Assembly (NCBI GenBank): GCA_905178155.1
Contig: CAJINV010000009.1
Location: 2,643,373-2,707,372 of the forward strand
Direction: 5' to 3'
DNA length: 64,000 nucleotides
Origin: Amoebophrya sp. A120
Lineage: Eukaryota; Protista; Dinoflagellata
Below the pieces are notes generated by a model. The model saw only the letters and a list, made by a program, of their open reading frames with translations, did not search any database and had not been told where the DNA came from. The position numbers and the translations under genes are program-made. Below are positions 1 through 64,000 of this stretch, in pieces. Numbering within the stretch: the stretch's first letter is position 1; each line of letters begins with the position of its first letter.

Positions 1-252
1 ATATGTGTGGGTCTGGAAGCATGCGAACTTGTGATGCGCATTTCACACCACAGATAAATCTCTCATGCATAGGCAGCAAAAGGCGCCCGCTTCCTGTCAC
101 CAAAATGGGGGATTTGTCATACGGATTAAGCAGTGCGGAAGCTTCTCGAAATCTGTGATGCTAGGGCTTCCATGACAGACATTTTGTGTCATGCAAAAAC
201 AGCATGACAAAAATCTGCACTCTTCCAGACCCAGACACTTTTGCATTTAATA
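1..252. mobile_element. Introner family A (left end outside window)
   Basis: GGGTCTGGAA ... TTCCAGACCCAGACACTTTTGCATTTAATA TIR. Confidence 0.85.
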
Positions 253-3200
253 CTGTTTTCGTGGGACTGGTCGGGTTGATGCTGGAACACCGTTGTTCGC
301 CGCGCTTGCCGCAGCAAAAGCACCACGCTGATGCGTAGTTCCAGTCGCCGCACCACCGGGAACATATCGACCGGAGGCGGCGCCACCAGTGCTCGAATGT
401 AAAGACGCCGTGGGGGAAGTTTGCCCCTGAAGATTTGGGTCTCCAACACCCCCAGCTGCACGATGTTGATCCCTAGAAGTTGTTGTAGTTGTCCCTTGAG
501 GATGACCTCCTCCCTTTGCAGCAGTAGAACTCACCTGGATATTGTGCCACGTTCGCATCCACCGAACCGGAATCTTCGCAGTCTGTCTTGTAATCTTCGA
601 AGATTTCGTACTGTAGCCGATTCTGTATATCGTTTGTGGTTTGCCCTTCTCAAATTCTTCCTCCTCCTCATCGCTCCTCAGCACGGTCGTGCTGCCAATC
701 GTGCCTTCCGTGCCCGTCGTCGCTGACCGGAGACGGTTCTCGGTTAGGGGAGGGTGGGTCGGAGGAACTATTGTTCCAGAAGATCGTACACCTCCTGCGG
801 CGGACGAGTCTTGCTTGTGCTGTTCCTGGTGATCGAAAGCTTCATCATCTTCCGCAGTAAAATGAAAAATCGCTTCATCCTCATCATACACCTTCGGCAC
901 AGAAATCGGCAACGAATACCGACTTTCCTCTTCCCTCAAAGCCGGATTCGACGCGGCGAGGATTGACGGTTTCTTCTTCGTATGCAGTGCAAAAGTATCG
1001 CGCTCGTACTACTTAACTGCACTAATGCATTAGATATTCCGCATCGCAAATCTAATCTGTAACGCTGAGCCAAGTTGCATTGCACGTTTATACTAGTACG
1101 ATACTTTTGCAATTCATACTTCGGCGCATTTGCGTACAAATAGTGCTCGACTTGCTTCTTCCACGAATCAAACTTCCGGATCAACCGCTTCCTCCTTTTG
1201 TACTCTTGAACGGCCGCGGGAATCGACTTCGTCTGGGGGTAGTTGCTGTGGAGAGAGTAGGCGTCGTCGACGAGTTTAGTAGAATTTTGATGCGTCTTGA
1301 TGTTCTGGTGGCCTTCTTGCTCTTGAAATTTATTGGTATTTTTACCACCCCCGTCAGCTCCACCTGATGTTGTTGACACAGACGCTGCGAACGGCCACTC
1401 CCCCACGGTTAACTTCTTTTTCACTTTTCGCTGCTCCAGCTTGTCTTTTTCGTTTATCGGGACAAGGACAAAAACAATCGACCGGAGCACCGAGCGGAGT
1501 CGATACCAGGGAAAATTCTGCTCGGTGGCTTTCTTACTGGCAAGGGACAAGCTGGAGGCAACAGCACGCGACGTAGCACCCTCTCCAAGTAGGTCGCCGT
1601 CACTGCCGACGAAATTCTTTTCATACAAAAACGCCGGCGTCGCTGCTGGCATATGGGGTTCTCAAACGTTCCATTCTCAACTGTTGCATGAATTTGTCAT
1701 GCAAAAATACCATTATCATCCACAAGACCAAGCCGCCTCGCATGACAAATTTGCGAAGGGCTACTAGGCAGCACCTAAATCTGTTCGGGATTTGTGATGC
1801 TACAGGCGCAACCTTCCCCCTTTCACTTTTGCCATTCTTGCATCACAAATCCATGTAATCGGTGAGAATGTAACAGTTGAGAACGCCATATGGCAAAGGG
1901 TGTGCTTGGGACACGATTTGGTCCACTGTGTTCCACGGGATGACGTCCGGTTGGCAGAAAGTCAAATGCAAATGTGTCTGGGTCTGGAAAGTTGGAACTT
2001 GTAATGCTAGCTTTCCATACCTAGAAAATCTGTATTGCATAACCAACATCAAAAGTCGCACCCTCTTTTCTCATTACAAAAACGCAGTTTCTCATGCTGA
2101 CTGACTATGAGAATGCGTTCCGGAAAGTTGTCATACTGGGTCCCATTCGGAACTGTTTCGATCATCCACATTTTAGCATCAGAAGTTTCCAGACCCGGAC
2201 ATATTTGCATTTGATACAGAAAACGCGTTTCTGATTCGTCCACGATTCCCGTTATCAAGTGTAAAAGTGTCTGGGTCTGGAGAAGTGTAGACTTGTCATT
2301 TTCCATGACCCGTGAGGTCTGGAACGCGGGACTTAGCATGACAGACTCTGCGAGGTCTCTGCCATGCCTATCCTGCATGAGAAACTCCCTTCCAACTACT
2401 TGAACAAAAGCTTACAGCTTTTGGCACTCATGCAACACAGATTTTTGCATGCTTCAGATTTACCATGACAAGTTCCATCCTTCCAGACCCAGACATTTTT
2501 GCATTTGATACCCGTTTCACATAGTCAATTTTCGTCGTGAGACCGCGCAAATTGTCGTATTCGTAGCGGAAGTAGAAGTGTTCGGTGGAGGAATTGTGGG
2601 CGTAGTAAGGTTCTTTTTTGTAGCTGCTACCTCTGCCGCGAAGGGCGACGCCATTGGTGTTGCTGTTGCAGCTGCCTTGTGGAGCAGGAACGTCGATCAT
2701 TCCCCCTCCTTCTTGGGTTCTTGAGGTATTCATCCAATTGTTGATGTTGTCCTCCTGCTGATGAAACAAATGCGCACCGCTCTCGTCGCCGGTAAACACC
2801 GTCCCCGCGCTGTTTGGGCTACTGCTGCTGCCTCCACCGCCGTACTTGTTCTGGAAAACGGATTCTTGGTAAGACCCCGGGGTGGGCGTTGGCGAGGGAA
2901 GCATGCTATCCGCGCTTGGACTTGACGCGCCGGTAGTTCCTGATCCAGAGCTGACATTCACGAACTGGCTGGTAGGCTGCTGCTGCAAACCTGCTGGATC
3001 ATTATAGCGCGGATCATTGCCGTAATCTTGCCGCGTCCACGAGTGGGACATCGGATCTGCCGCGCCCTCTGGCTTTACACCACGCGGCGGTCGTACGATT
3101 TTATTTCCGTGTAGTTGTCCCTGAGGCCTCCGCGGAGCAAAATCTGTAGCAGTAGGATCAAGGAGTATTGTGAGGAAAAATCCCCCCTCCCCATATCGAA

Positions 3201-6200
3201 AGCGGAATGTGTGTTGCTGTATTTGAGTACGCAAATCATATCTGTCTTGCTGGAGAGGACTGCAGACCCATATCAAGCCTGAGCAGAGAGGCTTTGACTT
3301 AGGCGCATAGCATGAAAAGCGTCCGTGGTGTTGGCTCAACAGCATGACAAACCGCCTCCATAATGGGACGGAAGCTGCTGCCCTTGTCTTCTTGCAACAC
3401 AAACGTGATTTGTGACCTCAAATCAGCAACACAAATTTTCGAAAACCTACCTTTTCAATATGGGGTGGGGGGATTTTTCCTTTTGATAAGTAGACCAGGT
3501 TCTTCCGAGATGGCGCTCGCCTTGCTACCCCGCTTGTTGTTAACGGTAGAATTGACGCCGGCAACCAGGTCCTCACCGCCGGTTGTACCACCGCCAATGC
3601 CGATTTTGCTACCCCTCTGACTGCTCGAATGGTGGTCATTTATTTTGCTCTCATTGTACATGTACGCGCGTTTCTGCAACACTCGCAAGATCGACCTACG
3701 GAGAACGTATTCGTATCCTGTGCAAAAGTATCGTATTCGTATACATGCATTACAAATTTCCTCAGCATGAGAAATAAAATTTGTAATGCTGATTTACCTT
3801 AAGGCAAAGATTTGTATATGCATGAATGCAATACGAGTACGATACTTTTGCAGTTCATAATTCGTAGCTGACCACGATGTCGTCGACGTGCTGTTTTTGC
3901 TCTATGGCGTTCTCAACTGTTCCATTCATTCCCAACTGTCACATGAATTTGTGATCCAAGAATGGCAAAAGTGCTAGGGGGAATCTTGCGCGTCCTGCAT
4001 GACAAATTTGGCACCGATTGTCAGCCTGTTTGATGGCCCTCTAAGAATTTGTCATGCGAAGCAGCTTCATAGTGTCGATTTTGAAGGCAATTTTGCATTA
4101 CAAATCATGTAACAGAAACAGTCGAGGATGTAACGTTTGAGAACGCCTTATGCTCCTTCGCCAACTTCGGACTTCTGTCCGTGTCCGACGCAGACGCGGA
4201 GAACCGCATTGTGTGCTGCGCTATCAAGTGCAAACATGTCTAGGTCTGGAAGAGTCCAAGGTAAAGGTTTGTCATGCAAAGGCCAGCATGACTCCAAAGC
4301 CTGTCATGCACATTACCCGAAAGGACCACTTTTCTGTCATGCAGAAACGCGCTTTGTCATGCAGAATACACAACACGTAGGTACTCAGAAACTTGTCATG
4401 CTGCGCTGCCAATTAACGCGTCCTCATGGTTCTTGTCCTACCCGCATCACAAGTTTCCAGACGCAGACATATTTGCGATGCATATGCGCAGCTTTTGCGC
4501 TTTCGTTTTTCGAATCGGTTTTGCTTCTTTCGCCCGGGAGGTGATGTTGCGCGGCTGCAATCACGGATGTTGATTGCGGTAGCCGGAGGCTTGAGGTTGT
4601 GGCAGACGAAACTGCGGCCACTCCGGCGGTCTTCCGTAACCTGGTGAATCCATCAGGCGCTGCTGTTCCTGCAGCAGCTCCCCCATGATGCATTCTTGTC
4701 CGCGAAGATGAGACTTGGGGCTGGGTCGCAGCAGGAGCAGTTGCACCATGAGCAAGATGTTGCTGTGTACTAGCTGCTATCCCACTGTTGCTGTTTCCGT
4801 TCTGACTGCCCCCCAACATGCTCAAGCTTTGCGACTCCGCGATCATACTTCCCTCCGGTCTCGCGACCCTGTTCAGAGTGCTTGCATCGCCAGATGGAAC
4901 ACCTCCTGTCGTAGTTCCTGCTACCATACCTCCAACCGTACCTCCGTTAACACTCGTTAAAGTCGCGTTATTAGGGGTCAGATTCTGTGCACCAGCACCT
5001 CCGATGTCACTGGTTGAGTTGTTGCTGCTACGTCTGTCGGGTTCTAAAACTCCCGCCGAGTTTAGTGTCTCCTCGTTCATCTGCAGCAGCTATGAAGGCC
5101 TCAGGTTGGAAATCCTCACAGTGAAAATGATTTGTAATGCAAAAAAAACGACACCAGTTGAAGCACCATTTCTAGTCGGCGCATGACAAATTTCTTGGGC
5201 ACTCAAAGCGTGTCTGTCATGCTAGTGAGGCAAAGGGGTGCCCTTCTCTCGTGCTAATCTGCAGCCCAATTCTGGACCCGTAGAAGCACAATAGTCGGCC
5301 TCCATTGCGTTCTCTGCAATACAGTTTTTTTGGTGTAGCATTCCATGCACTACAAATTATTTCCACTTTGAGAATTTCCTTTCTGAGGCTTTCATAACAG
5401 CTCGTTTGACCTGGACAAAGAATCGTCCTCTTGATTCAACAGGTTTACAGCGTTCATATCAGCTCCGGAGGGACTCGAAATCGCAGAAGCAGACGCACCA
5501 CCTTGTGGTTGCTGCTGCAACCCACCAAAGCTTAAAGACGTCGCGGAGTGGTCTTTCGTCCTATCTTCCCCAAGACTACCGGAATGCGAGCTCCTATCAT
5601 CCTCATGTGCACCAGCGCCGGCTCTGGTTGAAGATATGTTTTGTTGCAGTCTCCGGAGTTGTTCCTGGTCTAAATTTCGTGTAACCAAATCCAAATTGAC
5701 ATTTAATTCCTCCTATGCAACGCAAAAGCATCATACTCGTATAAATGCATGACAAATTTCCTCAGCATGAGAAATGAAATTTGTCATGCGGATTTACCTT
5801 AAGAGAAAAATTTGTAATGCATGATTGCGATTACTACGAGTACGATACTTTTGCACAGGATACCTCCCCGCTGGTAGAACTGCTGGCGGAAGTACGAGCA
5901 GTGCTTCTCATCAAATACTGCGATATCCTGTGTAAAAACGTCCCCACCCCAGAGTTGTCGTGCAAGTGCGCGACGACAGGAACATTTGTAATGCGCGGCT
6001 CCATGTAAGGCATTTGCATTTCCAACCGTGTTTTGGAATTTGTAATGCTGTAAACAGGATGAGAAAGCGGCTCCCTCATGCAGATTCCCTTGCTAACCAG
6101 CACGAAGCTGCAGAGGCAAACTTGTCATGCGCAACTCCCAAAACTTGGAGATTTGTCTAGCAGATTTCCCATCTTGACTATGGGGTGGGGACGTTTTTAC

Positions 6201-9200
6201 TCAGGATATGCGAATTTTCATGCACATCAGGCGAAACTTGTTGCCCTTCGCCCTGCACCGCCCGACGAGAGGAGGAAGAAGCGCCTCCTGTGCCGCCGAC
6301 GCCCAGCTGGTGCAGCAGCCCTCTGGAGGTTTGCGCGTTCGTCGGGGTGACAGCCGCAAGATGACCAGTAGCGCCGCCGGACAGCGCATTTGCTCCCGTA
6401 GAAGTTCGCGGCGGATACGTGTTTGACGACGAATTCGTCTGCGATAGCACCAATTTCGGTGTCGTGCTTGATCCAGCTGTCGCTAAATTGGAATTCGCCC
6501 TTGCTGGATCCGACGATATTGTGTTCGAACCGGAAACAAGTCGGGGGGAAGAAGACAAATTATACGTGCCTGCCGTATGCTTGTTTTTCAAGCTCGAGGT
6601 CGCTAGCCTCGTCGCGCCACCCGTAGTTGAGCTTCGACTGTTCTGCAGTTGACCCACAGATGCAGAAGTGCCACTACTTGTCGAGACTTTCATTGTCGTG
6701 GTTTTTGACGACGTTTTCGTGGTTTTCGAAGTTGTGAAAACAACAGAGGTTGGGTGCTTCCTGTCGTGTTGCGTGATGAAAATCTGATCGGTGTTAGCGC
6801 TGTAGCTCAGTTATGCATTGCAAAAGTATCGTACTAGTACAAATCGCAATACAAATTTTTCCAGAAGGAAAAATGGAATTTGTAGTGCTGATTTCGCTAA
6901 GAAGGAAGATCTGTCATGCATGATTGCAATTAGTACGAGCACGATACTTCTGCACAGGATATCAGTTCCCAATTGTGGTCCCAGTTACAAACCACCAAAT
7001 TCGACTTCGTGATCGTAGTCGTCGTGGTGGTGGTAGTGGTTTGATGCTGGTTGATAGAGGTAAGTGCCGACTGGGACTGATGATGTCCCCCGAGAGGTGG
7101 ACCACCGCCGGCATGATCCTTGCCAGGTAGATGCAAAGTCGCACTCGAGCCGTGCTTCGGCAACATGCCACTTACCGCGGACGCTGAGCCTGTTCCCGCA
7201 GTGGTTGATGTCGCAGCAGCGGCCGCACCTGCTCCCGATGAAGGTCCTAGCATTTGCATCGCTGTTGGACTCGCAGTAGAACTACTACCTCCTGCACTGA
7301 TGATGTTGGCACCACTTGAGGACATATTAGCCGTCCCGGTTTTATTTCCACCACTCGTCACACCAGCCTATCCCACGAAAAAACTGTTTCACTGTGATGA
7401 TCTTGCAAGATCTGCATCACAAGTTTGTTACACATGACACAGAAAATTTGGCATGCGCGCTTCCAAAGGGAAAACACCGGTAAAGAGACGAGGAATTGCA
7501 GGTGTGGCAAGACAAATAGTTCTGTCTTCCATTCTATCCATCACAAGTTCACAGCGAAACAGTTTTTTCTTGCGATACAGCCCCAGCGTTGTACATGACT
7601 TGTTGGTCCGCAATGGCCGTCGATCGGAACAGTTGCATCCCACAGACCAACCTTGTTCCAACCAAATCTTCGAACAGCTGTCTACTTTTACAGTGCGACT
7701 GCACCACCGGCTGTTCCTTGCCCTCTTCGTCTAGAGTTCGGAATTGTTCTGCGTTCGCCGCGACGCAGGACCAATTGTCGGATTTTTTTCCCAGCATGGA
7801 ATCTCTAAACCCCTTCCCGCTTCTCGTACTTGAGCGGACGTTTAATTTTCGTTCTACGAAAATCGGCAGCAACGGTGGCGAATGTAACACCGACCACAAG
7901 GCTTGTAGGGACAACAGCTTGGCTTTCTTGAAGTAATTCGGATTCTCCTTCGTAATTTCAAAACGCGTCGCGAGCCAACGCTCGGATTCTTCCAAAGTCT
8001 CCGGGGAAATCGGCCCATTTTGTGCGATGAACTCCGCTAATGCCGCTTTGCGCTCCTTCTGGTATTCGAACTGTTGCTGGATTTGCTGCTCTTTGACATT
8101 GGAAAACTTCCTGTACTGTTGCACCGGTTTAGTAGCTGGTTTGGAAGTAGTGCGGCGAGCAGCGGTGGTAGAAGTCGGAAGTGGTACTGCACCAGGAGGT
8201 GCCCCGCCTGTTCGACTTCCTGTTGCAGCGCCGCTGGCTGATGATCCATGAGATAAAGTTTGCTTATCAATAGCAAATATGTCTGGGTCTGGAAGAATGG
8301 AACTTGTAATGCTAGTCCTGCATTCCTGTAAAATCTGTGTTGCATCATGACTAGCAAAAAGACGCCCTCTTTTGTCATATTACAAAAGCGCAGCTTCTCA
8401 TGCTGACTGCGCATGCGAAAGTGTGCGGCAAACTTGTCATGCTTGGCTGCATTCGGAAGTATTTCAGTCATCCACACTTCAACATCACAAGTTTCCAGAC
8501 CCAGACATATTTGCAATGCATATTGCTGATGTTCTTGCAAAGTTGGTGTGGATTGATGCGAAACTGCCCTCCGGTTATTCATGCCTGATTGCATTGCAGG
8601 AGGTAGAGGTAGAGACTCCTGCAGTGGAGATGATCTTCCTGCGCCAGCATCCTGTGCAGTACTAGTACAACTCGGGAAGCTGGTCTGAATCGCAGCAAGG
8701 GGTGTTTTCTTCCCCTTTTGACCAGCTTTCGCGGCGCCAGTCGTGCCACCAGCTGCACCTGGGGAAGTCGCAGGCTTGGTCGCTTGTTTATTTCCCGTCG
8801 CAACGAGGACTCCGCTGGACGTCTCAGTTCGTTTTATTGTCGCAACATCTTCTGAGGCGGCAGAGGAACTCAAATTGACCGTATCGCCGGTGGACAGTTC
8901 TCGGATTTCCAATTGTGTGCTAGATTCAGGACCAGACTGCTTCAAAAACCCACCGGCGGTGGAACTCGCCGCACTATTAAAAGTCGCCGGACTCGGGCTG
9001 GTTGTCGAGGGGATTCTGTTTGTCCCCCTGCTCCCACTCAACGAGTCCAAATTTCCTCGCGAGCTATTCAGCCCACTCCCCGAAGCTGCGGAAGACAGGC
9101 TGGGGTGCGCGGTTACGACCATGCCGCTAATCGCCGCGGTAAAAGGGGCGGAGGACGCGGAGGAATGCAGTTGTTGTCCAGCAAGCATCATGTTCTCATT

Positions 9201-12200
9201 TGAACCGCTGGGCGTGATTTGATTCGACGCTCCAGAGCCACTGCCCGTTTTTGTAACCGAAGGTTTGTTCTTCCCTATGTTCGTGTCCTGACTAGCACCT
9301 GTTCCGTATACTTCTCCCGGAAAGGGAAAAAACGCATCGGAAAACGCGCGGCTCTGCGCGGCAAAGGGCGAGGGAGCGAGCAAGTCCGCGGGCTGGTTAG
9401 TTGCGGACCGCTTCAACGCGGATCGTCTCGCCGTGGAGGAAGAATTTCCGCCGCTCGCGTGCAGTGGGGTCAAAGTTTGATTCGCGGTAAGCAAATCGAC
9501 TTGGTGATGCTGGTGATGGACACTTGCTCTCGTACTTCCAGAGGCTTGCCTTTGCAAGCCGCCGAGGGAATTAGAGGCCGATCCATTGTAGGGAAACGCC
9601 AGCCCGCTGTCACTCATATGAACCCGCAAACCTGTCGGGGTGCTGCGCGGGCCACGGGGCGGCAAACCGGAAGTAGTTGTAGTACTAGGGCCTGCAGAAG
9701 TTGTTCCTCCAGCACTACTCAGTGGCGGCTTGTTCTGCACAAGTTTTCCCCTCGTAGAAGCTGAAGCACCAAACGCCCCGCCAGTATTGTTGAGCGTCCC
9801 TTGTTTATCCCACGAAAAAACTGCTTCACTGTGATGATTTTGCAAGATCTGCATCACAAGTTTCTTACACATGAGACTAAAAACCTGTCATGTGCGTTTC
9901 CCAAGGGAAAACACGCTTGAAATTCCCATGCCTTGCAGGTGTAGCAAGACAAATACTTCTGTGTTCCATTTTCTGCATCACAAGTTCACAGTGAAACGGT
10001 TTTTTCTTGCGGTATTGTTCTGCCACGGTGGTGTTACCGGACAACTGCTTCAAGGCTTCCTTTGCTTCCTCCTGGTTCAAAGTGCTCTGATTAGACACGG
10101 GCGTCGTTCCAGTGGTTCTACTCACATATCCTGTGCAAAAGTATCGCACTCGTACTAATTGCAATCATGCATGACAAATCTTGTTTCTTAGCGAAATCAG
10201 CATTACAAATTCGATTTTTCCTTCTGGAGAAATTTGTATTGCGATTTATACTAGTACGATACTTTTGCAATGCATATCACAATATTACCGGCAATTTGGT
10301 TCGTTTTCGAGTTGTTCCGACTACTAGTGGTCATCTCCTTCGATGAAGACGCGGAAAAAGCTGTCAGAGTTGTGTTCGATTGATCCTGGTCTTGATCCGT
10401 CAAAGTTAAGTCCGCCTGGTCCAAGTCTGAAGTGACCCCGACGCTCAAAATCGACTCGGGTAAAATCGGCGGCCCGCGAGACGAGGATGGAGCCACGACT
10501 TCCACGTGCGCCGCGGGGATGTTCAGTGGCATTTGTGGCCTGCTGTTGATCGCAGGATCATCCAACGGCGTCGCCGGGGTTGTCCCGGCGGTGCCCTCGG
10601 TGGAGTAGCTTGTCGTAGGAGAAGGTTCCTGTGGCGGGAACTGCTGGTTAGGACGGACCCGCTGGTTGACAAGAACCGGTGAGCTTTGGTTGGACAGCTG
10701 GTCTACTCCTGTGCTTCCGGGTAAAAATGGTCTACTGGTTGCTCGTTCTTTCGACGACGCCCGGGAGGAGCTGTCGCCGCCAGCCTGGTGCTGCTCCACT
10801 ATGGCGTTCTCAAATGTTACATTCTCAACTGTTACATGAATTTGCAATGCAAGAACGGCAAAAGTGAAAGGGGAAAGATTGCGCCTTTTGCATCACAGAT
10901 TTGGCGCAGATTCAGCTGCTGTTTGGCCCTTCGGAGATTTGTCATGCGAAGCAGCTTAATCGTGGCGATCTTGCTTGTAAATTTGCATTACAAATCATGT
11001 AACAGTTGAGAATGTAATGTTTGAGAACGCCATATCCACTCTCACTTCTTTCGAAGAAGTTTGGGATTTGCTTGAGTCGCCCTCAGCCACGTGACCTCCC
11101 GGAGTGCTGCTGGTTTCCTCCGCAAGTTGTCCAGGAAGTCCTCCATCTCCCACCTCCACAATATCCTCTAAAATCGATTTTGTCAAGTCTGGGGAGGATT
11201 CGCTCCGGATCTGCTTCTGATGCCGTGCCTTAGCTTTCGGTACAGCTGCTGTGCCCGCAGAAACATCTGCAGCTCGTCCTGCAGAAGTTGTAGTTGCAAG
11301 GTCGTGCCGACCGGAAGTTCTCTGTACTTCACCAGTCATCGCAAGACCTACCTCAGCACTTCCAAGAACTCTTTGTTCCCCTCCGCTTTTCATCTTCTCG
11401 TTCTCCGTCGTGGTCACATACTGCTTCCCGAACTCAAATACGTCCATCTGCCCGCCGACGTAGATGCCTGCGTTGGTCTCAAACTGGTAATCATCCGTGG
11501 GCTCCACCCTGGTCGTCGTCGGTCGCCACTTCACATCGTGAATCCCCAAATCGTGTACGTTCACCATGTCCTGAAGCTTCACATTCATTTGACTCGCTTG
11601 GGATGAAGCTGCTGCCAGGTTTGCTTGAGGCGTAGTTCCAACCACAGGGTAGGGAAAGCTGATTGCGGAAAGTGCCGCTGCAATCGGCGCGGGTTTCATC
11701 CGAGTTTGCTGCTCGACGAGAGTCCGGTATTGGAAATGGTCTCTTGGTGACGTAGTGTGTTGCGCGTTCCAGTTGTCTAACATCTGCATGCGCATCATGC
11801 TCTCCGCTGAACTGAATCCATCGCCGGCTAAGGTACTACTGCTGGCGTCACCGTTTGTTCCGGTGCCAAAAACGGTCGCGTTCAATTTCCTCTGCGATTC
11901 CAGGTAATTATTCACCTTCGCAATCGCGTTCGCCCCGAAAAACGCCTCGCGGAAGTGGTTTGCGGTTTCGAGGTCTTCGGTATTTAAAATGTTGTCGGGT
12001 TGGATCGACTTGTAGAGGTTTTCGTTGGAGAGATAGTACGCGGACAATGGATCTGGTAGCGCAGGAGCTTCTCCATCTGTACTGCTTGTTTTCTCAGCGG
12101 CCGCGGCCCCACCACCAGGTACAAAAAGCGCAGTCAAGCTTCTTTTCACGACAGAAGCCGCGGTGGGGATCTGCGACAAGCCGGCAATTGAGGACATTGG

Positions 12201-52700: not shown

Positions 52701-55700
52701 CTGCTCATGCAGCACAGATTTTCCAGGAATGCAAGACACGCATCACAAGTTCCACTGTTTCAGACCCAGCCCACATTTTTGCATTTGATAACCAGGAAAG
52801 GAAAACCATCTCGACGCGGCCGAACGCGTATGACCTGCAAAAATGTTCGGGTCTGGAAACTTGTGATGCTAGTTTGTGAATGGTGGGCGCACTGCGTTAC
52901 CACGCAGCCACGCATGACAAGTTTCTGAGCGTCTAATTCTATGTGTTTCGCTTCCATCCCGCATGAAAAACTGCGTTTTTGCATGACAGGTAAGAGGCTG
53001 CTTTCCTGCTCACGCATTACAGATTCAAGAGTCGTGTCAGACAAGCATGACAAACTTGCAGTCTTCCAGACCCAGACATATTTGCAGTTGATAACGCGGC
53101 GACTTTGACCAACACGGCGGAAAGGTACAGCAGGATCTGGATGGTTTGGGAGAGTGGAATTTAGTTATTTTTGTGGTGCACCATCAATTGCAATAAAGCA
53201 CAGACTCATGTAACGAAAATTTTTGTGATGCAAGAAGAACGATGAACATGCTATGTTACCCCGACAGTCAGGATCGACACCACCCACTGCAGCCCGCATT
53301 TCAAACACGCCTGCTCCAGATAGCTCAACGACTGGTGCTTCTCTGCCTTCATCAAAAATGCCTGCGTCGTCGTCGCAGAGACAACGGCATTTTGAAGATT
53401 CGCAGAAGCTGGCGCAGCTTGATTCACCCCGCCCGGAGGTCCTGCTCCGGTTAGTTGGTTTGGCGAGTTGCTAGAAGTTCCAGGTGCGCCAACGTTGTTT
53501 ATTCCGCCCCCACCACCCGCGACAGGCCCTGCAATCGCGTTGCCGCCATTACTCGCGGAGCCACCTCCACCTGCGCCATCGCCGGTCCCAGCAGGAACAG
53601 CTCCTGCACCGCCCGGACCACTCCCTTGGGCGCCGGCCGAGGCGATTAAGTGTAAAGACCGATCGTCTAGAATTGTCGTCCAGAAGATATGACCTGCTCA
53701 AACGTTACAATCTCAAACGTTACAATAGAATCCGAGATTTGTCTTGCATGATCAACATGACAGACTCGGACAGCATTCCACTTTCTGCAATACAAATTTC
53801 GCCAGATTGTAGTGCGGATTGGGACTCCAGAACTTGTCATGCGTAATCCTGTGGGAGTAGGGTAGATCATGCACTTCTTGCAACACAAGTCCCAGATTCT
53901 ATTGTAACGCTTGAGATTGTAGCACCTGGGCAGGTCATAGAAGATCAGCACGTTGTAGAGAAACAGGATCTATGAAATGCAAAAATGTCTGGGTCTGGAA
54001 GGATGCAACTTGTGGTGCTACCTCTGGATTCTACATAAAATCTGTATTGCGCGAGCAGCAAAAGAAGTGCAATTTGTGCTACGCGGAGAGGGTATTTCTC
54101 ATGCGGTATGAGCATCGGAAAGCCCTCGCAGAGTCTCTGATGCCAGGGCATGCATCACAGACCTCATGGGTCATCGTCATGCAAAATCTGCATGACAAAC
54201 TCCTGCATTCTTCCAGACCCAGACATATTTGCATTTGATAGGATCGGTAGCGCGATCGACATCGCCAGGATGATGTGCTGCACCGTGAAACACCAGGTGT
54301 TATCGCTATCGAAGCAGATTTCGTTCTTGTAAACAATTTTCTCGCACTCATCGCTGTCGTCGACGCAAACCAAGTGGTTTGGGTTGTAAATCGAAATTTC
54401 CGTCCCCGTGGAGTCCAGTATGCAATACAAATTTCCCGCTCAACGTCCACATGTACAAAAGGCATGAGATTTTGATTTTTCGCTAACTGGGATTGTCATT
54501 AAACTTGTCATGCTGGTGACTAAGATTGAAGGCACGTTTTGTCCTGCAGCTGCAGAAACAGCAACAGCATCTGTACGCGTCCGGGAATAGATATACTGTG
54601 AATATCCAACGTGACAGCGCAACTTGGTCTGCTGTCCCCCGTCAACGTGTAGTACTGGACTTGTTCGTTTTCCAGGTCCGTGACGGCGGACACCACCGCC
54701 TGCACTCCACTTGGTAATTCCGAAAATTCCGTCTCGTGGGGGAAAAACGTTTTCAGTGATGCGTTGAACGTATGGGAGTGCCAGGATCGAAATCGTCAAA
54801 GTTGAAATAACTTGTAATGCATAAAATCGATACCAGTTGGAAGCCCAAATTGTAAGCGGTGCATGACAAATCTCGGCACCGTCTAAATCCAGTTTGTCGT
54901 GCTGTTTGGGGACAGCAGGCGTCTTTTGTCATGCTTCCTTAGCAGCTCTATCCCAAACCCGAAACAGGCTCACAATCGGCCTCGCTTGCAATCCCTGCAA
55001 GACCGTCTTTTCATGCCTTGCATTTTATGCATCACAGATTATTTCAACTTTGTCGACTTCAATCCTGACACTCCCATAGAACGGCCCCTGTTGGTAATTC
55101 ACGAACACGGTGTTCTGCTCCAACGCAGCTTTCGAATACTGCTTTCCGAACAGTGACTCCCCGGGTATCCAGGAAAAAAACTGTGTAAGTGCATAGTTTC
55201 TTGGAGGACTAGCATCACAAGTTTGCTCTGCATGACACAGAAAACCTGTCATGCGTAGCTGGTACGTGAAAACACGCGCGAAAATTGCCTCTGATGCATG
55301 TCCAGCATGAAAATGTAGCAGTTTTGCATTTTATGCAACACAAAGTTACAGCACTTACACAGTTTTTTTCTTGGTGGATACCGGGATAGGAAGGAACAGT
55401 CGCTCGGCAGTTCGGGAAACAGACTTGCGTCCTCGGTAGCCTTCCCTGGTAGCTTTGCAACGAGTTGGTGTTTCGTGTTTCCGGGAGGCTGCTGGTCAAA
55501 AACCGGTCCTCGTCCACGAGCGACGTTTTCTCATTCGGGAACGCGACGTAGCGGCACTCATTGAAAGCCTTGGAAGATTCGAGTTCCGCATCGGCTGCGA
55601 TGGCGGAGGTGGTTGTCACGGATTTCGCTTCGTGCCGTCTCCCGAGGTGGAAGTCGTAGAGTTTGGAATACTCGTTATCGCCGTAGTAGATCGAAAAACC

Positions 55701-56275
55701 GGTTTTCAGGAAGCAGGAGAGCGTGGGGTATCCAGGAAAAAATATCCATCCCAATACACTTTGTCATGCAAAACATGCATAACATCCACTATTTGCCATG
55801 CAAAAAAATGGATGGGATGGGTGTTTTTTCCTGGATATGGGAAAGTTTTCCAACACACAGCTGATTTTGCAGTCCAGGCGTCGCTATCCTGTGCAAAAGT
55901 ATCGCACTCGTACTAATTGCAATCTTGCATGACAAACCTACCTTTTTACCACCTGAATTAGCATTACAAATTCAATTTTTCTTTCTGATAAAATTTGCAA
56001 TGCAATTTATACTAGTACGATACTTTTCCAATGCATAGTCGCATGCACAGCTTCCCATTTTCCCAATTCGCATAGTCGACCACGTGGGAGGTGATGATTA
56101 GGTAGATGGAAAGCGCGAGAAACAGGCGTATCAAACGAAGCAACGCGCCGGAGCGACACCGGGGCGGGAGATAGTTTTCGCGGAACCAGTAGCGGAGAAA
56201 AAGGTTGTTGGCTTTCAGGTGCGTCAAATAGGTTTTTGCAACCGGCTCAGCGTTCAAGAAGTCGGAGGCCCACAT
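46734..56275 (-). CDS. Multi-pass membrane protein: Cys-rich loop, voltage-sensor-like (S1-S4) domain and class I 3',5'-cyclic nucleotide phosphodiesterase; 16 introners plus canonical intron 53137-53259
   Basis: PDE motifs NPYHNALHACDV, IHDYQHPGVSN, LENHH, LATD, LHAADISN, EYFRQGD, QLGFI; VSD motifs FALEIVIR, WNLFDF, LLRLLRLLRL. Confidence 0.85.
47309..47421. mobile_element. Introner family D
   Basis: TIR; DR TTTCG. Confidence 0.9.
47527..47654. mobile_element. Introner family D (diverged)
   Basis: TIR; DR TTGAG. Confidence 0.82.
48020..49270. mobile_element. Introner family F with ~1-kb nested insert (about 48062-49037)
   Basis: TIR halves; DR TCCGC; interrupts the PDE catalytic domain. 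Confidence 0.88.
48858..48944. repeat. Tandem repeat ACGAAGTGCTCTGAAAAA(A), 4-5 copies
   Basis: Direct reading. Confidence 0.85.
50105..50262. mobile_element. Introner family B
   Basis: TIR; DR TCGTC/TCACC (degenerate). Confidence 0.8.
50682..51005. mobile_element. Introner family A with nested ~70-bp truncated retroposon (50738-50812)
   Basis: TIR; DR TGTCT/TATCT. Confidence 0.85.
51782..52043. mobile_element. Introner family A
   Basis: TIR; DR AGTCG/AGTCA. Confidence 0.88.
52102..52352. mobile_element. Introner family A (left end CAT)
   Basis: TIR; DR TTTGC. Confidence 0.88.
52536..52790. mobile_element. Introner family A
   Basis: TIR; DR ACCAG. Confidence 0.9.
52829..53093. mobile_element. 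Introner family A
   Basis: TIR; DR ACGCG. Confidence 0.9.
53688..53939. mobile_element. Introner family L (single copy here)
   Basis: TATGACCTGC..TACAATCTCAAACGTTACAATAGAATC TIR; DR GAAGA. Confidence 0.88.
53971..54240. mobile_element. Introner family A
   Basis: TIR; DR GGATC. Confidence 0.9.
54419..54604. mobile_element. Introner family K
   Basis: TIR (degenerate); DR TCCAG/TCCAA. Confidence 0.8.
54771..55078. mobile_element. Introner family G
   Basis: TIR; DR GAACG. Confidence 0.9.
55166..55380. mobile_element. Introner family E
   Basis: TIR; DR CCGGG. Confidence 0.9.
55729..55837. mobile_element. Introner family D
   Basis: TIR; DR TGGGG/TGGGA. Confidence 0.88.
55885..56037. mobile_element. 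Introner family B
   Basis: TIR; DR GTCGC. Confidence 0.9.
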
Positions 56276-58239
56276 AATTGATGTTTTTGAATTTTTTGGT
56301 ACGGTCGACTACCAAGAGTTTCTTTCTTCAACTACTCATGTGGTGCTCTCTCGTTATTTTAGAGGAAGTGGCACGACCACACCGACTGCGTATACCACTC
56401 GTTCCGCCTGGGTGAAATGATCCTCCGTCAACTACGTGCTTTATAATTCACTTCAAAAAGCTCCCCTGCTCTAGCACGAGCCGGAACCGCCTCAAGAACC
56501 TCGATCCCCCTCATCTTCAAGTGCGAACATGAGCGACTCGCACCATGCGTCCTCGTCAGCTTGTTGACGAAGGAAGAAAAGCGCGCGGACTACTTGCAGC
56601 TTCGCCGCCACCCCCCACCTCCGCGGTCGCTCGCGCGGCGCTCCACAAAAGCCATGGGCTGCGTGTGAGCGAGCATTGATTTCGCGCCACAGCAGGTGGG
56701 GCGAGCGGTGCGTGTAAAGCCGGGCAAACGAAAACACAACCCCAATCATTCAGCGACAATGCGTGACACGCGGTAGGCGTGTAGCTACAATAACGAAACA
56801 GCAGCCACACACCGCTGCATCAATAAGCTTAAGCTTAACGCGAGGAGAAGCACGGCGCGGGCGCACTATTTAGGGCGCGCGCGCCTTCTTTTTAGTACCT
56901 GCTGCGGAAAGCACATAGAACCCCCCCGCGGCGCCACAGGCAGCCGCCGGGAGTTGCCGGCGCCGGGGCTCGACACGGCCGAACGAACTGCCCCAAGAGC
57001 TCCCGCGGAGAGCTTGCCCACACCGTGGACACAACACAACAGGCGCGGCGCGCCAAAACCAAGAAAGCAAGGGAGTGCGCCGCCAACAGACACACCGGGG
57101 CGAAAGGTGATAGGGCGGGCCCGGGCGCCGCCCCCCTCCCGCGAAGAGGGGGCCGCGTCCGCCCGACCTGCGCGGAGGGTTGGCGGGCGCCACGAAGGCG
57201 GGGCCGCCCGGGGGCAGGAAGCGAACAGCGCGGCCGCCCCCCCGGGCCCGCCCGCCTCCACGGCGCGGCCCGCGCAACAAAGAGCAGGGGGCGCAACCGG
57301 GAGGGGACGCCGTCCCCGGCGGCGGCGCGCTTGCGGCGCTCCGCGGGGTAGACTGCGCCGCCCGGGGCCCGTTTGGTCGATGGCGCGCAGCTGCCAGCCT
57401 GGCGGCCTTCTTCGCCGTTCCCATACCCATCCCCGCCACGCTTGAAGGCTGCCCAAATAAAAAACGGCCGGGCCGACCCGCCTCGCAGGCCCCCTGCTTT
57501 GTTCGCATAAGCCTGCGCGAGTGGTCGCGCTCGCAATGCCGGCCGGGCGCCAGTGCCTGGCCGGGTAGCGAACGCGCTAAGCCCGCCCGCCTGCCCGATG
57601 GGCGCAACAAGCAACCGCCCCCCGCTGGCCCGAAAGCTGTCGCCCGAGTGCCCGCAACTGAAAGCGCCAGGCCGCCGCCCTTTTCGTGCATCGCGGCAAA
57701 ATTCGCGCGGGCATTTCGAGGCGGGTCGCTGGGGTATCCCTCCACTGCGAGCCTACCGCCCTGCATCTGGGCCCATTCCTGTGCCCGCGCCTGTGGCTGC
57801 TGGCGAAGGCGGCGCACCAAGGTCGTCGGGCGACGCGGCGCCCCCGCGATGCGCGCGCGATCCCTCACAAGTAGCCCCGGCCCCAGCCCGCGTCTGTCCA
57901 GTCTCTTCCGCTAATGCTGTGCATCAGTCTGGCGAAGTTGTGCAGCGCTTTTTGTTTGTTCCTGGGTGCTGATCTCCCGGAGGAGCAGCAGCTTGACGGC
58001 ACTGTGGCCGCGCGAACACATCATAATCTTCACACGCGCTGCTTTGTATATTGACAGAGCCAAGGCTAGCAAAAAAACATGTGTCCGCAATCGTCTTGAA
58101 TCTTCAAATTCGAACGACAGGAAACACGGATGCTATCGTCCTTCGGCTTTAATATCGGAGCTCAGAGTGAAGATAAAAAAATTCGAAACAAACAAGCGGT
58201 TGCTATCGCTAACATCCTCCCCATTTTCAATTTATATCT

Positions 58240-59804
58240 TCATCCATTATTGAACCCCAAGCTGTTCGTCATCAACTCCGCCAGACTACTGCCCGCGTTA
58301 TTTCGACTGTTCCCAAACCGCCTGGTCCCGCCAATGCCCGCGAAAGCCCCGCCTTGGTTCCCGCTAACGTTGTTTGGATTGCCGGACCCGGCGCCCGAGC
58401 TGCCGCTGTTGGACTTGCTGTGGTCGTTTGCGGACCGGTTTCCGCCGGTGCTGGTGGGGTTTGTCGTAGACCCAGGCTTGGAGCTCGTTCCTGAGGAACT
58501 GGCGTTTTCCTGGATAGTTTTTGTTTGATTTTTGCAACTGCAAGTGCTAGCAACACACAACTACACTACTACATGAACATGTACATCTTCATGGGTCTGG
58601 GTGCTGCATGACAAACAAAAACCCAATCTTCGCAGTATCATTCTCATCGTACCGAAGTGTCCACCGCGTCCAAGTACGGGTGCTTCAGGTACTCCATCCA
58701 GCTCATGGCTTTTATTGACCTGTCTCGGATGATATGAATTGCACAAGTATCGTACTCGTATAAATGCATTACAAATTTCCTCCGCGTGAGAAATAAAATT
58801 TGTAATGCAGATTTGCCTTGGGAACAAGATTTGTAATGCAAGACTTGCATTTGTACGAGTACGATACTTTTGCACAGGATAGATGAACGTGATCTCCGGC
58901 TTGGTCAGAAACGTGCAGTCCAACAGGATGTTGTCCCCGATCATCCGCAGGCCCTCCTTCGCTTTGTGTTTATGCAATACAAATTTCCCGCACATGTACA
59001 AGATGCATCACAAATTTCACCAATTTGGAGTGTGTCATGCTAAACTAGGAAAGAAGACAAGTTTTCTTGCCATGCAGAGACCGCATTTGTAGGTGTACGG
59101 GAAATTTACTGTGGATAGTGTCTCCTGAAATTCACCAGTTCGTGAAACCTGTCGGTGATTTCCTTCCGCGGATTCACCCGGAAGTAAATGCTGTGCATCA
59201 GGAACGTGTGCGCGATATGAGAGTGCACAACTCCCCCTGTCCTTCATTTGTCATGCAAAACCCCAAATCCAAGGGCTTCCCTGTGGCACTCTTTGCATCA
59301 CAAATTCCGGAACAAGCCCGAACAGTACTACAGCAGGCGCATAAATTTGCCATGCACAGGCTCGACGTGTGCTGGTGTTTGTGTTGCTGTTCATGCAATA
59401 CAAATGAGGGGAAAGGAGAGCTGTGCACTGTCATACGCGATCCAGATGAACCACTCGTCTACGGGTTCAAATTTGTGCGGATTTCGCTTTTCGTTCAGCA
59501 ACACCTGCTTCAATTTCCGTTCGGTCAGCCAGTGCGGTGGCCACAGCATGCCGTGCTTCCGCTGTTCCAACTCCAAGCCGAGCCAAATGGGGATCGCGGT
59601 CTTCTGGCCCTTTTTGAACGGGCCGTGCTTTTTCTTCAGCGTGGCGAAAATCTTGTCCTCGGAATTGTAGAAGTTGTCAGACTGGAATATCGGCGAGTCC
59701 CAGTGGAACTCGCAGAGCGCCTCGAGCGCTTCCCGCCGGTCCTCCTTCAACCATTTTTCCAGCGGCTGCGACCAGATCTTGTGCTTCCCGAGGCTGGAGG
59801 CCAT
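58240..59804 (-). CDS. PSF2: GINS complex subunit Psf2-like; 3 introners plus canonical intron 58510-58652
   Basis: HGPFKKGQKTAIPIWLGLELEQRKHGMLWPPHWLTERKL resembles the Psf2 GPF..VPLWLA..L.QR..PPEW motif; LDCTFLTKPEI resembles LDNLTLMEIN. Confidence 0.65.
58733..58881. mobile_element. Introner family B
   Basis: TIR; DR GATGA. Confidence 0.9.
58971..59117. mobile_element. Introner family K
   Basis: TIR; DR GTGTT/GTGTC. Confidence 0.85.
59216..59435. mobile_element. Introner family H
   Basis: TIR; DR CGCGA. Confidence 0.9.
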
Positions 59805-61300: not shown

Positions 61301-64000
61301 CTAATTCGAAGGTTCGATCTCCAAAACCGGGTGGTAATACTTCTTGACGAACAAGTCCATAAACGTCACCAACTCCCGGAACAACGAACCAAACGAATCC
61401 AACTCGTTGTCAAAATCTACCCAATGCTGTTCGTTTTTTGTCACCTTCTCCACCCCGGGAATGCCCTTCAGCTTCACGAGGCAGGATATGGAAGCGTCAG
61501 GATTGAAATTGACAAAGTTGAAATAGTTTGTGATGCATAAAATGCAACCCACAAAGTGGCTGTCTTGCAGAATAGGCAAGGGAGGCAGATTCGAAGCCTG
61601 TTGAGGGGTAGAAATAGGGCTGCTAAAGTAGCATGACAAAAGGCGTCTTCCTTACCCAAACAGCATGACAAACTGGATTTCGGTTCTACCCAAATTTGTC
61701 ATGCGCCACTTGGAAACTGGGCCACGCCTGGCATCCATTTTATGCATGGCAAATCATTTCAACTTTGTCGATTTCAAACCTGACGCTTCCATACAGGAGT
61801 TTTTCATCAGAGGCACCCATCCGGTTAATATCCTGAGTAAAAACGTACCCACACCAGAGTCAAGATGGAAAATCTGCTAGACAAATCGGCCAACTTTGCT
61901 TGTTTCGCATGACAAATTTGGACGCGTAGTGTAGTGCTGTTTGAGCTAGTTCAGCAGCATTACAGATCTAGTCTCTCATGCTGATTGGAGCATGACAAAT
62001 TTCAAAACACCCTTAGAAAATGCTTCTCATGGGGCTCCGCATGACAAACATTTTAAGCATGCAGATTTGCATGACAACTATGGTGTGGGTACGTTTTTAC
62101 TCAGGATAGTTAACTTCACGTAGTTCTCCCGGTACCGGTCTCCGTCAGAATCGAAGTGTTTTTTACTGATCCCAAGGCGCTCAAAGTGCTCCAGTGTTTT
62201 CTCATCCTTGGCCTTCCGGGCGATTTTCGCGAGGTCATCCACGGAAAGACCGTTGATTGTAGTATTTCCCCCGCCTTTAGGATTAGGTGGAAACGACCCG
62301 GTCAAAGACGCAACTGCGGCCTTCTCCGCCGCGGCATTCTTCGCGTCAATCATTTTGGAAAAAGTCTCGAAGGAAGCGCCTGTTTCGCTGAACAGTTGGG
62401 ACTGCGGAATCGTGAATTGGCTCTTGACGATGGTGTGGTAGAGGTCTTTGTCGTTGATTTTTTCTGCGGTGGACAACGCGGCCAACGCGTTGTTGTAGTC
62501 GTTGACTAAAACTTCGTACTCCGGTTGGAACTGCGCCTTCACCCTCGCAAGGTCGTTATAATTTTCTGCGTTCATATCATGGTCGTCGTCGTCAAAATCG
62601 TCCTCTTCATCCTCTACTATCTCCACTTTATCAAACGCCTTCGAGTCCACCAGACTCAGCAATTCCATCGCTTTTAACAGCAAAAGCCCGGACCGGAGTT
62701 TGAAGTTCTTCATCAACCACTCCTTTTGCAGCTCCTGTTCGCTCGGGCTAGCGGTTGTTTTTCGGGTGTTGCGACCACGGCGGCGGGGGTCTTCAAGGAG
62801 ATCCTCCCCTCCGGTTGCCGTTGCGTTCGTTCCGACCACGAAGTATCAAATGCAAAAATGTCTGGGTGTGGAAGAGTGTAGACTTGTCATGCAGATCTTT
62901 CATGACCCATGAGGTCTGGAATGCAGAGCCTAGCATTACAGACTCTGTGAGGTCTCTGTCATGCCCCCAATCCACCATGAGGAACTCCCTCCCAACTTGA
63001 TCGAAAGTGGACAGCTTTTGGCACTCATGCAACACAGATTTTTGCATGATCATTCGGATTTAGCATGACAAGTTGCAATCTTCCAGACCCAGACATTTTT
63101 GCAATCCATACGAAGCACGGATCAACGACTTTCAATGGTTGTGTGCAGTCGTACAGCGTCTTGTTGTCCTTTAGCAATTCATACACTTCCTGTTGTTTCG
63201 TGACGCAATAGTTTAGGACAAAATGTGCCTTGTCTAAAGCGTCGTGGAACAAGTAGACGTTTTTGTAGAGAATCGTGTATTCCCTCGCTTTCTTCTCAGC
63301 TAAACTCGCTCCCACCGGGTTCTTTATGCTGTGCAAAAGTATCGCACTCGTATAATGAATGCATTACAAATTTCCTCAGCATGAGAAATGAAATTTGTAA
63401 TGCGGATGTATATTTGTAATGCATGACTGCAATACGAGTATGAAGGTCGCGCCCGGAGGGCGATATTGGTAACCAAATGCGTGCGCGAAAATCTAACCAG
63501 CGCGAAAGCCTAACCAGCCGCGCGGCGAAAACGCGGCCCTGCGGGCCGCGCTTTGGGGCTATTTGTTTTTGATTACAGTCCCACTACTTCTTCTTCAAGC
63601 CCCCTGCGTGAGAAACTGGCCCCCTGGCCAGGAAGGTATCTGGGTCATCGAGGGCTTCCGGATTCGCATTCAAAGCTTATCGGGGCCGCGGGGAAGTGGT
63701 GGAGCCCGCGGCGGCCCGCAGGCTCCTGCGATAAGCATCGCAGGCGAAATCCGGTCTGCTATTTCGCAGCGGGGCATCCTTTCTAGCCCCCTGCATGACA
63801 AACTGGCCCCCTGGCCAGGAAGGTATGTGCGAAACCACAAACCCGCGGACCCTGCTGGGCCACCAAAGTCGGGCATTTCAGACGCGGCGGAGGTCCCGAA
63901 TTGGTGCCCACAACCCAGAGCAAACGTGGATTTTGGGACATGCCTCCGCCCGCTTCTAATGCATTTTTTTTTCCCCAATCGCGATGGTATGGCGCAAGCG
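61301..64000 (-). CDS. Hypothetical protein, 3' part (5' end beyond window); at least 4 introners
   Basis: Exons 63111-63324, 62109-62843, 61794-61828 and 61301-61486 lie between elements; no family recognised. Confidence 0.6.
61487..61793. mobile_element. Introner family G
   Basis: TIR; DR CAGGA. Confidence 0.9.
61829..62108. mobile_element. Introner family F
   Basis: TIR; DR GTTAA. Confidence 0.9.
62844..63110. mobile_element. Introner family A
   Basis: TIR; DR CGAAG. Confidence 0.9.
63325..64000. mobile_element. Introner family B interrupted at 63439 by a nested TAT-starting GC-rich element (runs off window)
   Basis: Left TIR at 63325; right TIR broken after TACGAG by TATGAAGGTCGC. Confidence 0.7.

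What the first reader, a model, noticed from the sequence alone, without database searches (positions are those of the whole stretch)
1..64000. A genome-invading system of DNA-transposon-like introns removed without GT-AG signals
Seen: 72 short TIR elements in about 12 families interrupt coding exons. Nearly all begin TAT, end ATA and are flanked by a 5-bp direct repeat with no consensus (CTTCG, TGGCA, CCCGT, GGGAA, AATGT...). At the junctions I checked, removing the element plus exactly one repeat copy restores conserved reading frames, and sliding the junction within the repeat does not give GT...AG. Established: non-canonical introns with inverted and direct repeats (introner elements) are reported in Amoebophrya, and how they are excised is unresolved. 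Inference: MITE-like elements made harmless by a precise, non-standard excision machinery.
Basis: partly seen in the sequence, partly recalled or inferred. Interest (0 to 1): 0.92.

Follow-up and report, generated by a model that had tools for sequence, protein, structure and literature searches.

The report
Transposon introns of a parasitic dinoflagellate
About 70 small transposon-like elements interrupt the protein-coding genes in this stretch of a parasitic dinoflagellate genome and are missing, to the base, from assembled contigs that are likely RNA, although most lack normal splice signals; the system is already published, but the cut points here likely follow one fixed rule that points to a modified spliceosome.

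Summary
Observation confirmed: 71 complete TAT…ATA elements with a 5-bp duplication, none in shuffled controls. All 70 top-level ones lie in coding exons. Removing element plus 5 nt opens all seven gene frames. Contigs of a likely RNA run skip exactly that length at 16 junctions; contigs of a DNA-like run keep the elements. Two window proteins match 100% records named Amoebophrya sp. A120, and the ends match the published A120 introner motif (PMC7789003). So the system is already known.

Added here: imperfect duplications place the cut 1 nt before TAT and 4 nt after ATA (intron = N·TAT…ATA·NNNN). The upstream cut rests mainly on one decayed element. In an independent set the first two element bases are better conserved at the transcript-5′ end than at the 3′ end (1 vs 9 deviations, p=0.011). 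This favours directional RNA recognition with a degenerate NUA donor, likely by a modified spliceosome (about 0.5), over a hairpin-guided cut-and-join enzyme (0.3). No transposase or branch point was found. This scan noted similar hairpin introns earlier in other genomes.

The parts
254..25186 (-). Iml1/DEPDC5-like gene (5124 codons open, continues past the window start). 31 top-level elements: 981-1118, 1652-1890, 1960-2216, 2253-2510, 3166-3488, 3714-3859, 3903-4150, 4222-4484, 5091-5396, 5714-5862, 5924-6208, 6812-6961, 7369-7577, 8265-8522, 9806-10014, 10127-10276, 10800-11034, 13421-13575, 13696-13804, 16124-16385, 17130-17344, 17393-17501, 18580-19385, 20197-20457, 20512-20775, 20840-21104, 21473-21671, 21726-22036, 22091-22238, 22420-24439, 24881-25149
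   Evidence: no stop over 32 cuts; Pfam IML1 on two exons; no RNA laid here
1..252 (.). element of the ~260-nt family cut by the window start (only one end present)
   Evidence: similar loci align to 3-253
18719..19346 (.). 628-nt element with long perfect inverted ends and its own 5-bp repeat, nested inside element 18580-19385
22420..24439 (.). ~260-nt family element expanded to 2020 nt by a nested insertion; no transposase domain found in the five insert ORFs scanned
24499..24686 (-). canonical GT-AG intron (188 nt) in the same gene
   Evidence: restores the frame; no RNA check
26949..28887 (-). 397-aa gene of unknown family; elements 26962-27214, 27296-27530, 28455-28696
31756..33844 (-). 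flavodoxin/FMN-reductase-like gene (weak Pfam hit); elements 31887-32770 (with nested GC-rich insert), 32924-33076, 33114-33244
36410..43794 (-). FkbM-methyltransferase-domain gene, 1384 aa; elements 37332-37593, 37805-38132, 38701-38916, 39008-39273, 39582-39796, 39853-40003, 40197-40505, 40528-40792, 42410-42576, 42651-42968, 43074-43339
41865..42276 (-). intron formed by a decayed element (TAT…ATA at 42275-41869, mirrored match only 2/19, repeat 3/5); starts GT, ends TA; fixes the upstream cut at -1 because keeping that base gives a TAG stop
   Evidence: (contig piece ends at 41864)
46734..56275 (-). membrane/Ion_trans/phosphodiesterase gene (1612 codons open); elements 47309-47421, 47527-47654, 48020-49270 (nested ~975-nt insert), 50105-50262, 50682-51005, 51782-52043, 52102-52352, 52536-52790, 52829-53093, 53688-53939, 53971-54240, 54419-54604, 54771-55078, 55166-55380, 55729-55837, 55885-56037
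   Evidence: (direct skips of 329 and 163 nt)
53137..53259 (-). canonical GT-AG intron (123 nt)
   Evidence: matches P0001 N-terminus and opens the frame
58644..59804 (-). GINS PSF2-like gene (209 aa; weak Pfam hit); elements 58733-58881, 58971-59117, 59216-59435
61301..63324 (-). 3′ part of a gene of unknown family; elements 61487-61793, 61829-62108, 62844-63110
63325..64000 (.). ~150-nt family element interrupted at about 63435 by a GC-rich insertion that runs off the window

Best explanation
These are the published Amoebophrya introner elements: short elements with TAT…ATA inverted ends and 5-bp duplications that sit in coding exons, were likely inserted by a DNA transposase encoded elsewhere, and are likely cut out of the pre-mRNA by a modified U2-type spliceosome at a fixed register, leaving no footprint. 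Shown: the anatomy; location in coding exons only; both orientations; loss of exactly element + 5 nt in likely-RNA contigs and annotated proteins; retention in DNA-like contigs. Inferred from imperfect duplications: the upstream cut is 1 nt before TAT and the downstream cut 4 nt after ATA, so the intron reads N-U-A-U…A-U-A-N-N-N-N. Inferred mechanism: the symmetric ends present U at +2 and A at +3 (a GUA donor without the G) in either orientation. The acceptor has no sequence of its own and would be set by distance from the 3′ inverted repeat, helped by end pairing. The duplication would make the joined exon identical to the pre-insertion sequence.
For: RNA level: X3 contig 12 skips 50677-51005 (324+5) and 50100-50262 (158+5) with no other letters. 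Contig lengths 2470, 2153 and 1616 are predicted exactly over 14 more junctions (the 1616 figure assumes a 30-nt contig overlap). X1 contigs run from exons into elements and span two elements whole. Footprint: P0001 equals the k=5 model over 9 junctions, and homologs align without gap only for k=5 at 4 conserved junctions. Register: the contigs keep the transcript-upstream copy at repeat positions 2-3 (50105) and 4 (50682, 37805, 43074, and 39853 by length), and the downstream copy at position 5 (decayed element). P0121 is matched only when 4 upstream bases are kept; 0-3 give 2 differences and 5 gives a stop. At L004 a 91%-identical ortholog has the residue of the downstream copy (weak). Direction: first two element bases deviate in 0 of 70 5′ ends vs 3 of 70 3′ ends in the window, and 1 vs 9 among 210 strand-assigned elements of 340 in other loci (one-sided p=0.011). 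A decayed element with a 2/19 mirrored match is still removed at the same register. Canonical introns share these genes. PMC7789003 found 83 of 89 spliceosomal proteins and did not detect U1. The tunicate preprint states that the U2 spliceosome is needed for TIR-derived non-canonical introns in Fritillaria.
Against: Nothing here touches the enzyme. The +1 base is free (G 23, A 22, C 13, T 12 of 70) and the acceptor dinucleotide is random (AG in 4 of 70); from general knowledge, normal spliceosomes need G+1 and AG. An invariant adenosine at -7 seen in the window (70/70) did not replicate (3 deviations in 210). The repeated GCATNACAA motif is as common antisense as sense (53 vs 47 of 71), so no branch signal was found. 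57 of 66 elements fold their ends together, which suits a structure-guided enzyme equally well. Exclusion of a cut exactly at TAT rests on one decayed, GT-starting element. X3 being RNA is the tool's guess. P0001 and P0121 are annotation and may derive from the same transcripts. No transposase was found, and PMC7789003 reports none in A120.
Confidence: 0.5

Rival explanations
1. Same RNA-level removal and register, but by a non-spliceosomal, hairpin-guided cut-and-join activity, like euglenid nonconventional introns (a stem with short fixed unpaired ends: 1 nt at 5′ and 4 nt at 3′).
For: 57 of 66 elements pair their ends in the minimum-energy fold. Seven of 10 multi-member groups occur in both orientations. 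Donor +1 and acceptor are free. The Euglena code is a paired motif with fixed spacers (PMC12501133 abstract), and those introns are released as circles without lariats (PMC11282704 section 6).
Against: Directional conservation of U+2/A+3. A decayed element with a 2/19 mirrored match is still removed. The ~150-nt family keeps fixed mismatches between its two ends at positions 4-7.
Confidence: 0.3
2. RNA-level removal at a different or variable register (for example exactly at TAT, with the whole downstream duplication removed); the decayed element is an unrelated odd intron.
For: Only one junction excludes a cut at TAT. Its ends score only in the top 5-9% of background TAT 16-mers. The PMC7789003 Fig. 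3 legend calls splice sites variable relative to the hairpin. The NT donors of its Table S4 (9 of 9 top A120 pairs) may be a BLAT artefact (BLAT used).
Against: That intron's contig-defined ends have TAT at +2..+4 and ATA at -7..-5, exactly the element geometry. L004/P0123 agrees. All five position 2-4 cases give one pattern.
Confidence: 0.13
3. Ciliate-like programmed DNA elimination: the elements are cut from a somatic genome and the skipped contigs come from that DNA.
For: Transposon anatomy and footprint-free removal. Only one DNA-like run was laid, life stage unknown. 1037 of 1052 joint rows were not shown, and the cross-run joined-form table was not given.
Against: The 8 listed X1 contigs at depth about 42 cross exon-element borders without a break. 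X3 has no depth in intergenic 44354-45687 and has gene-specific depths of 9-20. End conservation follows transcript direction. PMC7789003 supports these introns with RNA-seq.
Confidence: 0.04
4. The genes are pseudogenes, or use nearby cryptic GT-AG sites.
For: 5 of 70 elements can be read GT-AG within the repeat.
Against: All seven frames open with no stop. Exact skips at element ends. Conserved PDE domain intact.
Confidence: 0.01

Closest known systems
Introner elements among non-canonical introns of Amoebophrya sp. A120 (Farhat et al. 2021, PMC7789003)
   Same: IR begins TAT + 7 variable nt + AAA; direct repeats at the borders (5-bp example in the Fig. S19 legend); about 240 nt; non-GT-AG; window proteins 100% identical to records named A120.
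   Different: No difference in kind. The paper describes 3-5 nt repeats and variable splice positions. Here the duplication is uniformly 5 bp and one -1/+4 register fits all informative junctions. Their figures could not be seen and may already show this in part.
Non-canonical TIR introners of the tunicate Fritillaria borealis (as described in 10.1101/2025.08.15.670264 Introduction and PMC11282704 section 6)
   Same: MITE-derived introns with TIR and TSD, non-GT-AG ends, abundant; removed by the U2 spliceosome.
   Different: Fritillaria ends have preferred dinucleotides (AG-AC, AG-AT) and U1 is conserved. Here +1 and the acceptor are free, and U1 was not detected in Amoebophrya.
Nonconventional introns of euglenids (PMC12501133 abstract; PMC11282704 section 6)
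   Same: Paired ends with fixed spacers to the splice sites, TSD-like repeats, proposed MITE origin.
   Different: Euglenid core is CAG/CTG at +4..+6 and -8..-6, released as circles. Here the core is TAT/ATA at +2..+4 and -7..-5; the released form is unknown.
Canonical introners of Aureococcus, Micromonas, Symbiodinium (PMC9860276 passages)
   Same: Non-autonomous TIR/TSD elements; splice sites can be recruited from the TSD; enriched in genes.
   Different: Those keep GY/AG splice sites; these need neither.
IS3EU/GingerRoot DNA transposons (PMC10045372 passages)
   Same: TA..TA termini.
   Different: TSD usually 6 bp there, 5 bp here; no transposase to compare.

Membership tests
Amoebophrya A120 introner elements | IR starting TAT, 7 variable nt, then 3 or more A | tested here: met
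   PWM of 70 ends: TAT at 1-3, A-rich at 11-13; 142 further elements
Amoebophrya A120 introner elements | direct repeat of 3-5 nt at the exon/intron border | tested here: met
   5-bp repeat, perfect in 52 of 70
Amoebophrya A120 introner elements | repeated, in families | tested here: met
   12 groups; 65 of 71 have a relative among other loci, median identity 85%
Amoebophrya A120 introner elements | absent from mRNA, non-GT-AG ends | tested here: met
   16 junctions in likely-RNA contigs; no GT-AG register in 65 of 70
MITE (non-autonomous TIR DNA transposon) | short, TIRs, fixed-length TSD, no coding capacity | tested here: met
   no Pfam transposase hit in the 14 insert or GC-rich ORFs scanned
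MITE (non-autonomous TIR DNA transposon) | cognate autonomous transposase sharing the TIRs | tested here: inconclusive
   none in the window; among 340 elements in other loci the longest is 1104 nt and its two ORFs scanned had no Pfam hit; no genome held
U2 spliceosomal intron | GU (or GC) donor and AG acceptor | tested here: not met
   +1 free, AG in 4 of 70 at the inferred register; only U+2/A+3 conserved
U2 spliceosomal intron | branch adenosine and lariat | not testable with these tools
   two candidate signals rejected by sequence; lariats not observable
IS3EU/GingerRoot | TA..TA termini with a 6-bp TSD | tested here: not met
   termini fit; TSD is 5 bp
Euglenid nonconventional intron | CAG/CTG paired core | tested here: not met
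   core is TAT/ATA; defining motif
Ciliate-type IES (DNA elimination) | element absent from somatic DNA | tested here: inconclusive
   kept in the listed contigs of the one DNA-like run; other stages untested

The most novel reading that the evidence does not exclude
Amoebophrya runs a second splicing code, N|UA…AUA-NNNN|, with no G donor, no AG acceptor and no U1. It is executed by a new enzyme or a rebuilt spliceosome that measures the acceptor from the transposon end. The elements' presence only in coding exons (70 of 70, none in 13.3 kb outside) reflects insertion coupled to transcription or to this machinery.
Probability: 0.3. Interest if true: 0.85.

Novelty: already known. Interest (0 to 1): 0.45.

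Why it matters
The elements and their unexplained splicing are in print. What this window adds makes the open question testable. A fixed -1/+4 register with conserved U+2/A+3 says exactly where lariat or circle junctions should lie and which bases to mutate. It separates a relaxed spliceosome from a new enzyme, and it gives a simple rule for annotating genes in these abundant marine parasites. If right, a spliceosome can work with neither the G of GU nor AG, which would let transposons flood coding exons at little cost.

Tried and rejected
No whole genome is held, so there was no genome-wide transposase or snRNA search.

No listed holder was on record as RNA. Raw RNA runs X9 and X10 (same species label) did not cover the exons at 95% identity and gave no evidence. 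Contig evidence covers only 36350-56340; the Iml1-like gene has none.

k=2 and k=8 removal open frames too but add or lose a residue per junction against P0001 and homologs: rejected.

An invariant branch A at -7 was rejected on the independent set. GCATNACAA as a branch motif was rejected because it is orientation-neutral; it is more likely a subterminal repeat (142 in 19.7 kb of elements vs 11 in 44.3 kb outside).

The break at 53137-53259 first looked like a decayed element but is a canonical intron. The only position-5 mismatch among intact window elements (5091) is synonymous, so proteins cannot test it. Of three non-synonymous position-5 cases in other loci, L038 had no homolog, L004 gave weak support and L014 was not tested. 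130 of 340 other-locus elements got no strand and were left out of the asymmetry count.

Pfam of GC-rich and nested-insert ORFs and Rfam of 18000-64000 gave nothing useful. Roy et al. 2023 is not held.
Full report
Observation. A strict search found 44 elements that start TAT, end ATA, have inverted ends and a perfect 5-bp flanking repeat; 8 Markov-shuffled windows gave 0 each. A relaxed search found 62, with 0 in 3 shuffles. Nine more were added by hand, giving 71 complete elements, 70 top-level, covering 30.9% of the window. One more is cut by the window start and one is interrupted near the window end. 63 of 70 have both TAT and ATA, and 52 of 70 have a perfect repeat. With no repeat required, its length is 5 in 32 of 46 pairs here and 191 of 265 elsewhere. 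Clustering gives 12 groups; 7 of the 10 multi-member groups occur in both orientations relative to the genes. GT-AG can be read in some register for only 5 of 70.

Genes. All genes are on the minus strand. Removing element + k nt opens frames for k = 2, 5 and 8. With k = 5, two canonical introns and one decayed element, all seven interrupted genes are stop-free, including 5124 codons over 32 cuts. Pfam finds IML1, FkbM, Ion_trans and PDEase, and weak FMN_red and PSF2 hits. All 70 top-level elements lie in coding spans and none in 13.3 kb outside (P about 4e-12 if random); my spans may miss unannotated genes. Exons of the PDE and FkbM genes are 100% identical to proteins named Amoebophrya sp. 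A120 by their sources.

Removal is exact and likely at the RNA level. Four runs were laid on 36350-56340. X3, guessed by the tool to be RNA, has gene-specific depth and none in intergenic 44354-45687. Its contig 12 skips 329 nt (324+5) and 163 nt (158+5) with no other letters. The lengths of contigs 9, 10 and 11 (2470, 2153, 1616) are predicted exactly by k = 5 over 14 more junctions, including a 1251-nt element with a nested insert (contig 11 assumes a 30-nt overlap). The 8 listed X1 contigs, at depth about 42, run from exons into elements and span 47527-47654 and 55729-55837 whole. None of the 15 joint rows shown is a precise excision, but 1037 rows were not shown. X9 and X10 did not cover the exons. 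P0001 equals the k = 5 model over 9 junctions, and homologs align without gap only for k = 5 at the 4 conserved junctions. These annotations may derive from the same transcripts, so they are not independent.

Where the cuts fall. Imperfect duplications show which copy survives. The downstream copy is kept at position 5 in the decayed element 41869-42275, where the upstream base would give TAG. In the 12-intron FkbM gene, only 'keep 4 upstream bases' reproduces P0121; 0-3 give 2 differences and 5 gives a stop. At locus L004 a 91%-identical ortholog carries the downstream-copy residue, which is weak support. The intron is thus N·TAT…ATA·NNNN. The -1 cut rests mainly on one decayed element whose ends score only in the top 5-9% of background, although its contig-defined ends have exactly this geometry. 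Table S4 of PMC7789003 lists NT donors for 9 of 9 top A120 non-canonical pairs, but BLAT was used and may have produced that.

Directional signal. In the window the first two element bases never vary at the transcript-5′ end (0 of 70) but vary at the 3′ end in 3 of 70. I tested this on other DNA. A TIR pattern matched 159 stretches of metagenome contigs; the listed ones are all JACKZZ01 contigs. These gave 340 elements, 210 with a strand, and 1 vs 9 deviations (one-sided p = 0.011). A second idea from the window, an invariant A at -7, failed (3 deviations). The +1 base and acceptor are free. A 9-nt motif is strongly enriched in elements (142 in 19.7 kb vs 11 in 44.3 kb) but orientation-neutral, so I read it as a subterminal repeat (inference). 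57 of 66 elements pair their ends.

Mechanism. Insertion by a transposase making a 5-nt staggered cut is inferred from the uniform duplication. None was found in the window or in the insert ORFs scanned, and PMC7789003 reports none in A120. For removal I favour a modified U2-type spliceosome (0.5): U+2/A+3 are what remains of a GUA donor, the constraint follows transcription, a nearly unpaired decayed copy is still removed, and Fritillaria is a precedent. Against it: G+1, AG and a branch signal are all missing. A hairpin-guided enzyme as in euglenids is the main rival (0.3). A different register (0.13) and DNA elimination (0.04) remain open.

Comparison with the literature. PMC7789003 (abstract, sections 10, 11, 12, 16 and 25, passages, supplement legends and Tables S4, S5, S7; figures not visible) describes A120 introners with TAT + 7 nt + AAA ends, 3-5 nt repeats, 29,850 copies, undetected U1 and unknown splicing. 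PMC12130899 (passages) assigns A120 introners to diverse transposon classes. Also seen: PMC11282704 (passages, section 6), PMC12501133 (abstract and opening), 10.1101/2025.08.15.670264 (passages, Introduction), PMC9860276 and PMC10045372 (passages). Searches found no paper that resolves the mechanism or states a fixed register. The library lacks most subscription papers, including Roy et al. 2023. [quoted passage not shown] Earlier notes of this scan report similar hairpin introns in other genomes; I did not test them.

Verdict. Real, already known, mechanism unresolved. The fixed register and directional U+2/A+3 conservation are a modest, testable addition. Interest 0.45.

Noticed in passing
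window 46734-56275: One open frame of 1612 codons once the canonical intron 53137-53259 is removed; annotated P0001 (1147 aa) starts inside it, and the A25 ortholog aligns from its residue 373, so the annotation may be 5′-truncated or split.
   Followed up: partly
window 22609-22683 and 50741-50815: Two copies of the ~260-nt family carry the same 75-nt insertion start (97% identical); in one it extends to about 1.7 kb.
   Followed up: partly
window 48066-49040, 31913-32640, 63435-64000: Unrelated insertions nested inside elements; the first begins with a long T run, like a retroposed tail, and other copies of the family lack it (X1 joint 48065-49041).
   Followed up: partly
window 37509-37585: RNA run X9 (same species label) has about 200 reads matching this element end with foreign flanks, while no exon is covered at 95% identity: an element shared with a diverged strain, or an unspliced copy.
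   Followed up: no
window, exons between elements: 19 of 62 internal exons are 70 nt or shorter (smallest 17 nt), against about 10 expected if random: insertions cluster.
   Followed up: partly
window 26306-26514: Tandem array of a 13-nt unit in intergenic DNA.
   Followed up: no
window 44354-45750 and 56777-57972: GC-rich (0.63) intergenic blocks with overlapping open frames and no Pfam match; the first has no X3 depth.
   Followed up: partly
window 28455-28696: Flanks fit an 8-nt repeat with one mismatch better than a 5-nt repeat.
   Followed up: no
L001-L078 (contigs JACKZZ01): The same element families occur in this assembly (median 85% identity to window copies); a protein from L004 is only 91% identical to its nearest database hit, so the families likely span more than one strain.
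   Followed up: partly
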